Of a DNA stretch of 64,000 nt, positions 6,001 to 9,000 are shown in pieces. A program made the position numbers. How positions within the stretch are numbered: position 1 is the stretch's first letter; each line of letters starts with the position of its first letter. The DNA is taken from assembly GCF_053078305.1 (NCBI RefSeq), contig NZ_CP166879.1; one strand, given 5' to 3'.

Positions 6001-9000
6001 GTGAAGTTATCGTGGTAGTCACGGGTTTGTTTTTCTTCAGGCACACCTACGTTGCTGATTTTTGATAAGTGCCACTTACCGATTGCTGCAGTGTAATAAC
6101 CATGATTCTGAAGTAATTCAGACAGGAATGTTTCTTCCAGAGGGATACCATCCTGTGCATCAGAATTTGAATATACACCGAAGCGAGCAGGAGCTCGCGC
6201 CGTCAGGATTGCGGCACGTGAAGGGCCAGAGACACCGTGTGCAACATAGCCGTTAGTGAATTTTACACCTTCGTCCATCAGGGCCGCTAATGTTGGAGTG
6301 GATTTTTTTGCAGCTTCAATTGCTTTATCAATACCTATTTTGTATGTATCAACAACATTTCGGTTATCCATCGTTTTAGGGTCAAATGAACTATCATCAA
6401 AAGGCAATTGTCCATACCCTAAATCATCCATTGTTAAAACAATGATATTTGGCTTACCTTTAGTGCTGTATTCCGTCGGCGTGAAGTCCGCAAAGGCAAC
6501 ATTGGTTTTTGTTGCTTTGAGCTTAACATCATCTGCTGCATTTGCAGTACTCATCATCAGACCAGATGCTAATATAAGTGATATTGATGAGTTAAGCAGT
6601 TTTTTATTTAACTGATGTTCCATATGGTATTCCTTCTGAGTTGCATCACGAACATTTATTAATAATAAAAGCCTCTGATATAAATAAAAACTATGTAAAT
6701 CGTTTAAATGGATACCTGTTAAAACTGATACATCATACCAACAGCAAGTATATTATCGGTTGCAACTCCAGCCTTTTTGGTAAATTCGCTTTCATCAATA
6801 AGGTTAATTTTGTAATCAATAAGAAGTGACATGTTTTTGTTCAGAAAGTAGTTTGCGCCAACATCAATATACTCAACAAGAGACTGATCGCCATAGTTTA
6901 CTATTCCACCTTTAACATCCATCCCTTTGGACTGAACGTAAGCCAGTGAAGGACGCAGGCCGAAATCAAACATATACTGAGCCACAACTTCAATATTCCG
7001 TGCTTTATCTGCGATGCCTGCGCTACCAAATGGAGTCATATTTCGGGTTTCAGAGTAGTCAGCTGCCAGATACAGGTCATTATCATTATACTTGACCCCA
7101 ACACCTGCAAACTCCGCATGTTTTCCCCCGGCAATCCAGCGAGGCGTAATAACTTCTTTTCCTTCTGAATCTTTCGATGTCATGAAACGTTTACGGCCTT
7201 CTTTTTCCTGCAGACTGGTTCTGTCGGCATTAGTGTAAGCGGCAACGATTCCAAAACCTTCATAGTCATAGCTTACGGAGAAACCATATCCATCACCATT
7301 AGCTTCAAGTAAATTATCACGGTCATTTTTACCCTGATATTGAGCAGAAAAAGTAAGTCCATCAACAAGCCCGAAGAAATCTGTATTGCGCCAGGTCAGA
7401 ACTCCGGTTGTTCTGCCGGTCATATAGTTATCAGAGTAAGTCCAGCTGTCACCACCAAAGTCCGGAAGTACGTCAGTCAGAGCCCCCACATCATAGGCAA
7501 CACCATAGTTTCGCCCATAATCAAGTGAACCGAGTATATTGTGGCGAATACCTGCAAATGCCAGACGATTTTTATCGTTGCGTACTTCACTTTCTGTCTT
7601 AAACCCCAGGAACTGGTATTCCCACTGACCAAAGCCAGTCAGGCTCTCATTAATTTGTGTTTCGCCTTTGAAACCAGACGTGCAAATGTTCTGTCGCCAT
7701 CCATAGAACCATCAGAGATGTAATGACGGGCTTTAACGCGACCATAAAAATCCAGTTTATTACCGTCTTTATTATAGATTTCTGCTGCCTGTGTTGCCTC
7801 ACACAGCATTAATGCAGAAACGACAGAGCACACAACCATACTTAATTTTCGCATAAAAAAATCCCCTGTGCACATTTTTAGTATGGTTTTAAAAATTAAA
7901 CTATGGCGAAAAAATTATCACTATGCAAAGATGTAACAAAATATTGCTCAGTGATCTATGTTGTTGTTTTTATTTGAGGTTGTATATTTTCTAGTGTGTT
8001 TGACTTTTCTTTCTCAAGTGTTATTTCTTGACCTTTATCACAGAACCATCTCCCTGGATATCCCCATCACATTGCATGAAAAGCAAGTTTTACCAATCTT
8101 GATTTTCAGTGTTAAATAAGATTAATAACTGTAATTCTGCAAAAAAAAGAACACCATATGTAGTATGACTACGTATTCCACTCTGTTCGTTCACGGACTG
8201 GCATCGAAGTCTGAGGTGTACTGGCAATAGCGGATACAGTCATTTGTTCTTTTTTTAAGCATTCATCCGATGATACTTTTCCTGAATGCTACCGGAGTGG
8301 TATTCCCCTGCCGTGAGGGAGGGCGCTGACGGTTATAAAAATCCTGATATATACCCATTCCCGTATGACAGCGATGGCGTCACATCTCTGTTCTACCATC
8401 TTCACAGAAATATTTCGTTCATTAGCATTCCGGTATTCGTATAACCACCTTCGGTGGAGAAAGAATAAACAATCCCTGGAATGCGATGAGCGCTTGACCA
8501 GAAAAGCATCATATTGCTTCATGGCGCATCAGCGACCACAGGATGCCGCAAAAGCCGAAAAACGGACCAGAGCGCCTGCAATCATTCCTCGCCTCAGTAT
8601 CTGTTGCCCATGGAGTGGCCGATAACAGATCATTGTCGGATGAGCCTTATCCCCTTCCTTCCCGGTGGTATCCGGATGTGCTGCCAGCCTTCTCAGTTAA
8701 CCGATGTTTTCCGGGCTTTTTGCCATACTGAGGACTGATAACGTATTCCTGGTCGTAAAACCCGTCAATATGCGCCGGGGCATCGACAAAACTGACACAG
8801 TACGTCCGGAAAGAACTTAACGCTGCATGGCACGACAATGCTGCCTTTGTCTTTACCAACAAGGCTCGTTCCCGCATAAAAGTTCTACGCCGGGATAAAC
8901 ATGGCGTATGGCTGCGTCAGGCCTTCACTACTTCACACCGGAAGTCTTCCACCCTGACACGAATATACCGTCCGGGCTCTTTCGCAGGTGCAAACAGTTT

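What the first reader, a model, noticed from the sequence alone, without database searches (positions are those of the whole stretch)
6719..7854. Porin gene inactivated by a single-base loss in a G run
N-terminal and C-terminal parts of an OmpC/OmpF-like porin are in different frames. The shift maps to CTGG-TTTC where CTGGGTTTC would restore ...[13 protein letters not shown]... This is either a genuine pseudogene or a homopolymer sequencing error.
Basis: seen in the sequence. Interest (0 to 1): 0.3.

Follow-up and report, generated by a model that had tools for sequence, protein, structure and literature searches.

The report
Island porin gene broken by one-base deletion
An accessory OmpC/OmpF/PhoE-type porin gene on a Shiga-toxigenic E. 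coli pathogenicity island is split by the loss of one T (not a G), an ordinary strain-specific pseudogene or a residual sequencing error that only the raw reads can tell apart.

Summary
On the minus strand, 6719-7854 is a 378-codon general porin gene whose first 60 codons and last 318 codons lie in different frames. Putting one base back at window 7676 makes it identical, base for base, to the commonest intact allele (WP_001228922.1).

The detail "G run" is wrong. 111 of 112 complete E. coli records carry CGTCTTGGTTTC, so the lost base is a T from a TT doublet.

The window is 100% identical to GenBank draft JPQG01000001.1 (E. coli strain 48, a roe-deer STEC). No porin protein is called in that record.

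No other public sequence I could search has this deletion. Island relatives that differ by 1-2 SNPs in 9.4 kb have the intact gene. The event is therefore either very recent or an assembly error. I put this at about 0.6 genuine and 0.35 error.

Eight other independent null alleles of the same porin exist elsewhere, so loss of this gene is tolerated and recurrent.

The porin sits upstream of a periplasmic S1 carbohydrate sulfatase and near a YdeO-like AraC regulator. This module is already annotated in LAA/LPA/SE-PAI-type islands. Interest is low.

The parts
6719..7854 (-). Whole porin gene (pseudogene as assembled). It is 1136 nt instead of 1137 nt, with ATG at 7854-7852 and TAA at 6721-6719.
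   Evidence: It is identical to intact allele WP_001228922.1 except for one missing T.
7639..7854 (-). N-terminal reading frame of 71 codons plus TGA: a 23-aa signal peptide, 37 native mature residues ([11 protein letters not shown]...TFARL), then 11 out-of-frame residues ([11 protein letters not shown]).
   Evidence: The exact 71-aa and 78-aa products are absent from the 15-billion-protein collection.
7675..7677 (-). Site of the single-base deletion. On the + strand CCAAG has become CCAG; on the gene strand CGT CTT GGT has become CGT CTG GT. This is gene nt 178/179, codon 60.
   Evidence: 0 of 112 complete E. coli records share it. 111 of 112 carry the CTTGG 72-mer exactly.
6719..7674 (-). 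C-terminal 318 codons of the porin in the shifted frame ([10 protein letters not shown]...GMMYQF). They contain no further mutation.
6719..7489 (-). Residual 256-aa ORF (GTG start) left in the C-terminal frame. It has no signal peptide, so it cannot be exported.
   Evidence: The same remnant ORF is called on 14 Logan contigs that carry other upstream null mutations.
4926..6623 (-). Downstream gene, 95 nt after the porin stop: a 565-aa periplasmic S1 sulfatase. It has a signal peptide and an S-G-P-S-R motif (Ser-type). It is intact and identical to WP_000401034.1.
   Evidence: The best solved relatives are S1_19 carbohydrate sulfatases at 1e-56.
4893..4918 (.). Perfect 11-bp-stem palindromic hairpin just after the sulfatase stop. 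It is the only strong terminator-like structure near the pair. None lies between porin and sulfatase on the minus strand.
   Evidence: This is a consensus scan only; the operon structure is inferred.
10004..10741 (+). Divergent YdeO-like AraC-family regulator (245 aa), 2.1 kb upstream of the porin. It is a candidate regulator of the module.
   Evidence: YdeO model at 1.1e-51, below the cut-off. It is conserved next to the porin in all relatives.

Best explanation
A very recent, strain-specific loss-of-function allele of an accessory general porin.

The gene belongs to the OmpC/OmpF/PhoE family and is carried on a pheU/pheV-type STEC island (the espI / subAB-tia / porin-sulfatase region). In E. 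coli strain 48, one T of the TT doublet in codon 60 (CTT) was lost. The ribosome then reads 11 wrong codons and stops at codon 72, inside strand beta-2. The product is a 23-aa signal peptide plus 48 residues, which cannot form a barrel. The remaining 256-aa ORF lacks a signal peptide, so no porin is made.

The sulfatase gene 95 nt downstream is intact. Its expression may be reduced by polarity, because about 1 kb of untranslated mRNA now precedes it.

Shown: the deletion, its uniqueness, the intact state of the rest of the module, and recurrent independent nulls in other strains.

Inferred: that the deletion is in the DNA of the strain rather than only in the assembly; that porin and sulfatase form one operon; and that the porin admits the sulfated substrate of the periplasmic sulfatase.
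For: - The gene differs from the intact allele by exactly one missing T and nothing else.
- The site is a 2-nt run, not the long homopolymer where consensus errors concentrate.
- The assembly is otherwise clean of indels. There are 0 gaps in 17.2 kb of the ICE against L012 and 0 internal gaps in 9.1 kb against L042. Against L016, L035 and L040 the only gap is the porin one.
- The same gene is independently inactivated in other isolates, several by changes that cannot be homopolymer errors. These are W78* and Q81* nonsense mutations, a 5-bp duplication, 80-bp and 151-bp deletions, a 5' deletion, a +T frameshift annotated as a pseudogene in RefSeq and an IS1-associated truncation.
- Neighbouring island genes are also decaying in relatives. 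espI is fragmented and the phosphoethanolamine transferase is frameshifted.
Against: - The allele is a singleton. It is absent from 112 complete E. coli records, from the metagenome and species-representative genome scans and from Logan/NCBI gene calls.
- Relatives with only 1-2 SNPs in 9.4 kb have the intact gene, so one indel against 1-2 SNPs is a high ratio for natural divergence.
- The source is a 2014 draft whose largest contig is at least 1.76 Mb, from a group that used PacBio-only assembly for sister strains. That platform's residual errors are mainly single-base deletions in runs of identical bases.
- The only other window-unique single-base indel (T4 to T3 in an IS3 copy) is of the same type.
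- No reads are available to me.
Confidence: 0.6

Rival explanations
1. Consensus or assembly error. The strain has the intact gene, and the deposited draft dropped one T of the TT doublet. This would be a pulse-merge type single-base deletion, typical of long-read-only consensus.
For: - The window equals JPQG01000001.1, a draft from a group that used PacBio SMRT-only assembly for sister strains.
- The allele is unique among all searchable sequences.
- There are no secondary mutations in the gene.
- Near-identical islands carry the intact gene.
- The second window-unique single-base change is also a deletion in a T run.
Against: - Only 1-2 candidate errors appear in about 55 kb compared with close relatives.
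- The run is only 2 nt long.
- The sequencing platform of strain 48 itself is inferred, not documented in any paper I could read (one search failed).
- Genuine nulls of this gene are common elsewhere.
Confidence: 0.35
2. A regulated or switchable frameshift. This would be either phase variation by slipped-strand mispairing or programmed ribosomal frameshifting that still yields full-length porin.
For: None beyond the fact that the two halves are otherwise perfectly preserved.
Against: - There is no repeat tract. The site reads T2 G2 T3, and phase-variable contingency loci use much longer runs.
- All 111 homologues are simply in frame.
- The codons around the site (CGU CUG GUU UCA AAG) contain no X XXY YYZ slippery heptamer, as read directly.
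- No Rfam element lies in the region.
Confidence: 0.02

Closest known systems
Classical enterobacterial general porins OmpC, OmpF and PhoE (Pfam PF00267 Porin_1; PDB 1pho, 2j1n, 3hw9)
   Same: Full-length match to Porin_1 (E=6.8e-124). It has the [12 protein letters not shown] mature N-terminus, the [12 protein letters not shown] beta-2 strand, the L3 motif PDFGGDS and the C-terminal YQF. The best solved relative is PhoE at 1.2e-110.
   Different: It scores below the NCBIfam cut-offs for OmpC (441 vs 484), PhoE (420 vs 599) and OmpF (411 vs 583), so it is a separate paralogue. It has an external-loop insertion about 15-20 aa longer than PhoE (QEKEGRKRFMTSKDSEGKEVITPRWIAGG). It has Gly where PhoE has the anion-selectivity Lys125, counted from the alignment; the role of K125 is taken from my own knowledge of the PhoE literature. 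It is island-borne and found in only about 2% of complete E. coli genomes.
The 'putative porin' / 'OmpF' plus 'N-acetylgalactosamine-6-sulfatase' gene pair annotated in LAA, LPA and pheV/pheU islands of LEE-negative STEC
   Same: Same gene pair and same island family (espI, subAB, tia, phosphoethanolamine transferase, P4-type integrase, tRNA-Phe att). The pair is mentioned as a putative porin next to a GalNAc sulfatase in PMC6920203 and PMC6174562.
   Different: In those descriptions and in 111 complete genomes the porin is intact. Here it is frameshifted. I found no functional study of the pair.
Known porin pseudogenes and null alleles in E. coli (e.g. nmpC interrupted by IS5 in K-12; ompF/ompC loss in clinical isolates)
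   Same: Loss of a non-essential porin paralogue by a simple lesion. Multiple independent null alleles occur in the population.
   Different: Those examples come from my own knowledge and were not tested here. No selective agent is known for this island porin.

Membership tests
General bacterial porin, OmpC/OmpF/PhoE family (PF00267) | Full-length match to the family profile above the curated threshold | tested here: met
   For the repaired protein, Porin_1 gives 414 bits against a cut-off of 23.7, covering profile positions 1-337 of 337.
General bacterial porin, OmpC/OmpF/PhoE family (PF00267) | Sec signal peptide, conserved mature N-terminus, L3 'PEFGGD'-type constriction-loop motif and C-terminal aromatic residue for BAM insertion | tested here: met
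   The sequence shows [41 protein letters not shown] and ...GMMYQF.
General bacterial porin, OmpC/OmpF/PhoE family (PF00267) | 16-stranded trimeric beta-barrel that forms a diffusion channel | not tested
   Inferred only from end-to-end alignment with 1pho, 2j1n and 3hw9. No structure prediction or assay was run.
Equivalog OmpC / OmpF / PhoE (NCBIfam NF007841, NF007446, NF007544) | Score at or above the curated cut-off of the model | tested here: not met
   Scores are 441 vs 484, 411 vs 583 and 420 vs 599. It is a distinct paralogue, not one of the three named porins.
Pseudogene by frameshift | An indel not divisible by 3 relative to intact orthologues, giving a premature stop with no compensating indel | tested here: met
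   One base is lost at gene nt 178/179, the stop is at codon 72, and no other difference occurs in 1137 nt.
Pseudogene by frameshift | The lesion is present in the organism's DNA, not only in the assembly | not testable with these tools
   No reads are available. The allele was found only in assembly GCA_000736735.1.
Phase-variable contingency locus / programmed frameshift | A long homopolymer or short tandem repeat at the shift site, or a slippery heptamer with the frameshift conserved among homologues | tested here: not met
   The site is T2 G2 T3. Homologues are in frame. No slippery heptamer is present (read).

The most novel reading that the evidence does not exclude
The island porin may be a recurrent target of selection for loss, for example as a phage or colicin receptor, an entry route for a toxic compound, or an immunogenic surface protein. 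The strain-48 deletion would then be one of at least nine convergent null alleles that leave the downstream sulfatase intact. The evidence does not exclude this, but it does not show it either. My sampling of nulls was biased towards the 5' third of the gene, and nulls are only a few percent of copies, which fits neutral decay of an accessory gene.
Probability: 0.12. Interest if true: 0.4.

Novelty: already known. Interest (0 to 1): 0.12.

Why it matters
It matters little beyond annotation hygiene. If genuine, strain 48 lacks one accessory porin and may under-express the linked periplasmic sulfatase. This is relevant only to anyone studying the uncharacterised porin-sulfatase module of LEE-negative STEC islands. 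If it is an error, it is one more long-read consensus deletion that creates a false pseudogene. The practical lesson is that comparing homologues pins the missing base to a T of a TT doublet, so the check on the reads should look for CTTGG versus CTGG.

Tried and rejected
- Rejected: all intact homologues have CTTGG.
- **Same allele elsewhere.** I searched 5,426 complete E. coli genomes, metagenome contigs and GTDB species representatives (positive control with the intact allele), and made exact look-ups of the truncated products. Nothing was found.
- **'Partial porin' cluster members as evidence of IS disruption.** Rejected: they occur as pairs of two alleles broken at the same point. This fits assembly breaks in two-copy genomes.
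- **IS3 T4-to-T3 deletion at 24050 as a second clear sequencing error.** Inconclusive: the closest relatives carry an IS110 element inserted exactly there, so the site is not comparable.
- **Window-unique indels at 11008 and 16417.** Rejected as errors: both are shared with independent assemblies (L016, L032-L041).
- **Sequencing method for strain 48.** I tried to read the primary paper (PMID 25488108), but it is not held.
- **Rfam scan.** It found nothing at the locus.
- **Promoter scan.** It gave no minus-strand promoter above background.

Full report
**1. The observation**

On the minus strand an ORF starts at ATG 7854, preceded by AGGGGA. It encodes a signal peptide and the canonical porin N-terminus ([22 protein letters not shown]...TFARL). 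It then runs into 11 unrelated codons and TGA at 7641-7639. The next frame continues [20 protein letters not shown]... to ...GMMYQF and TAA at 6721-6719.

The repaired protein matches Pfam Porin_1 over its whole length (E=6.8e-124). It matches solved PhoE, OmpC, OmpK36 and OmpF structures at 1e-110 to 1e-100. This is not a chance resemblance.

**2. Which base is missing**

A megablast of the region against 5,426 complete E. coli genomes finds the gene in 114 genomes, always one base longer.
- With a 71-nt probe across the site, 0 of 112 records match the window's version exactly.
- With the 72-nt version from an intact copy, 111 of 112 match exactly.

The intact sequence is ACG TCT TGG TTT C on the gene strand, read in frame as CGT CTT GGT TTC. 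The window has CGT CTG GTT TC. The lost base is thus one T of a TT doublet (gene nt 178/179, window 7676), not a G.

Re-inserting T reproduces allele WP_001228922.1 exactly over all 1137 nt. The gene contains no other mutation.

**3. Where the window comes from**

The surrounding genes are:
- a TonB-dependent receptor, IS110, the sulfatase and the porin;
- a YdeO-like AraC regulator and an intact espI;
- subAB, tia and a phosphoethanolamine transferase;
- IS3, a P4-type integrase, a 3' half of tRNA-Phe at 26680-26729, and then a PFGI-1/SPI-7-type integrating conjugative element.

This is the LPA/SE-PAI/LAA-type island family of LEE-negative STEC.

Exact-protein look-ups led to GenBank draft GCA_000736735.1, contig JPQG01000001.1. 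It is 100% identical to the window over 20,762 bp and over 11,738 bp, the latter including the porin. According to PMC5323612, JPQG00000000 is E. coli strain 48, a STEC from a roe deer. In that record no porin protein is called between the sulfatase and the regulator, so the depositor's annotation already treats it as non-coding.

**4. Real mutation or error?**

*For a real mutation:*
- The window is otherwise almost free of indels against close relatives. There are none in 17.2 kb of the ICE against L012 and none internal in 9.1 kb against L042. Against L016, L035 and L040 the only gap is the porin one.
- Other apparent indels, at 11008 and 16417, are shared with independent assemblies and are polymorphisms.
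- The site is only a 2-nt run.
- The same gene carries at least eight other independent null alleles in other isolates:

| Allele | Where seen |
|---|---|
| W78* (G234A) | Logan assemblies L004, L010 |
| Q81* (C241T) | L006 and GCA_016117225.1 (L016), which encodes an EspI identical to the window's |
| 5-bp duplication at nt 152 | L005 |
| 80-bp deletion | L003 |
| 151-bp deletion | L007, L008 |
| 5' deletion removing the first 133 nt | GCA_020564705.1 (L038) |
| +T at nt 454, annotated 'frameshifted' in RefSeq | NCCP 13963 |
| IS1-associated truncation leaving 114 nt | JNEC-KY203 |

- In every one of these loci where the sulfatase region is present and covered, the sulfatase is intact.

*For an error:*
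- The deletion is a singleton in all searchable data.
- Islands differing by only 1-2 SNPs in 9.4 kb have the intact gene.
- The gene has accumulated nothing else.
- The source is a 2014 draft with a 1.76-Mb contig, from a group that used PacBio-only assembly for sister strains. That strain 48 was sequenced this way is my inference. Such assemblies mostly err by dropping one base from a run.
- The only other window-unique single-base change is also a T-run deletion, in an IS3 copy. That site is confounded by an IS110 insertion in the nearest relatives.

I judge a genuine mutation somewhat more likely (about 0.6) than an error (about 0.35). Only reads can settle it.

**5. What the gene is and how the module probably works**

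The protein is a distinct paralogue within the OmpC/OmpF/PhoE family. It scores below the NCBIfam equivalog cut-offs for all three. It has a longer external loop than PhoE and Gly at the position of PhoE Lys125.

Ninety-five bases downstream lies an intact 565-aa sulfatase with a signal peptide and an S-G-P-S-R active-site motif. Its closest solved relatives are S1_19 carbohydrate sulfatases. No terminator-like hairpin separates the two genes on the coding strand, and a strong one follows the sulfatase.

From these points I infer a bicistronic unit. The porin would admit a sulfated sugar or oligosaccharide to the periplasm, where the sulfatase acts, possibly under the neighbouring YdeO-like regulator. 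None of this has been tested experimentally as far as I could find. The literature only lists the pair as 'putative porin/OmpF' plus 'GalNAc-6-sulfatase'.

With the frameshift, translation stops inside strand beta-2. No barrel can form, the 256-aa residual ORF has no export signal, and polarity on the sulfatase is possible (inferred).

**6. Rejected alternatives**

Phase variation and programmed frameshifting are rejected. There is no repeat tract and no slippery heptamer, all homologues are in frame, and no Rfam element is present.

**7. Verdict**

This is an ordinary frameshifted accessory gene, or a false pseudogene, in a known gene family and a known island context, and it is already implicit in the deposited annotation.

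The only mildly interesting by-product is the number of independent null alleles of this porin. This could reflect selection for loss, but it is equally compatible with neutral decay of an accessory gene.

Noticed in passing
window 23082-24413 (minus strand), site about 24050: This IS3-family element has a T4-to-T3 single-base deletion relative to the copy in L002, which breaks orfA after ...LLGKK. In the nearest island relatives (L022, L023, L025, L026) an IS110-family element is inserted at exactly this point (CCATGGTT|...|TTTCTTACCC). The missing T could be a sequencing error, a natural variant, or a footprint related to IS110 insertion or excision.
   Followed up: partly
window 26680-26729 (minus strand): A 50-nt 3' half of tRNA-Phe (anticodon stem to CCA) lies between the island integrase (25319-26503) and the ParA/DnaB end of the ICE. 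ARAGORN calls no tRNA here. It looks like the att junction of two elements integrated in tandem at a pheU/pheV site. It probably explains why nearly every E. coli genome matched this stretch.
   Followed up: partly
window 20229-20258 (in tia, 19816-20577 +): A perfect 15-bp tandem duplication (CAGCAGTGCATTCAC x2) adds five residues (SSAFT) to the Tia/Hek-like outer membrane protein. The allele is not rare: it is listed in 199 blocks of the protein index.
   Followed up: partly
window 11654-15745 (+): espI is intact here (1363 aa). In several complete RefSeq relatives it is fragmented by an A5/A6 and a G-run difference and by an ISEc8 insertion.
   Followed up: partly
window 17544-19026 (-) and 19816-20577 (+): subAB lies directly beside tia, the SE-PAI (subAB2-1-type) context. 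Yet the paper that cites this genome (PMC5323612) describes strain 48 as carrying subAB2-3 in a location unrelated to tia. Either the strain has two subAB loci or the typing description does not fit this locus.
   Followed up: no
window 40367-41114: A 36-bp unit is repeated 20.8 times (91% matches) inside the ICE, overlapping ORFs on the minus strand. Copy number and sequence differ between relatives. Function unknown.
   Followed up: no
window 44233-44525: A STAXI RNA (Rfam RF01728, 76 bits) overlaps a 64-bp x2.9 tandem repeat, upstream of the ICE ssb region.
   Followed up: no
L013 21211-22712 and L014 21212-22712 (homologue of window 20739-22241): The island phosphoethanolamine transferase is annotated as frameshifted in two unrelated complete genomes but is intact in the window. 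This is another sign of ongoing gene decay, or of assembly indels, in this island family.
   Followed up: no
cluster members P0003/P0004, P0007/P0009, P0010/P0014: Some E. coli genomes carry two alleles of this porin (K/R and TKK/TQK variants). Draft assemblies of these genomes break at the same codon in both copies, giving paired 'porin, partial' proteins.
   Followed up: partly
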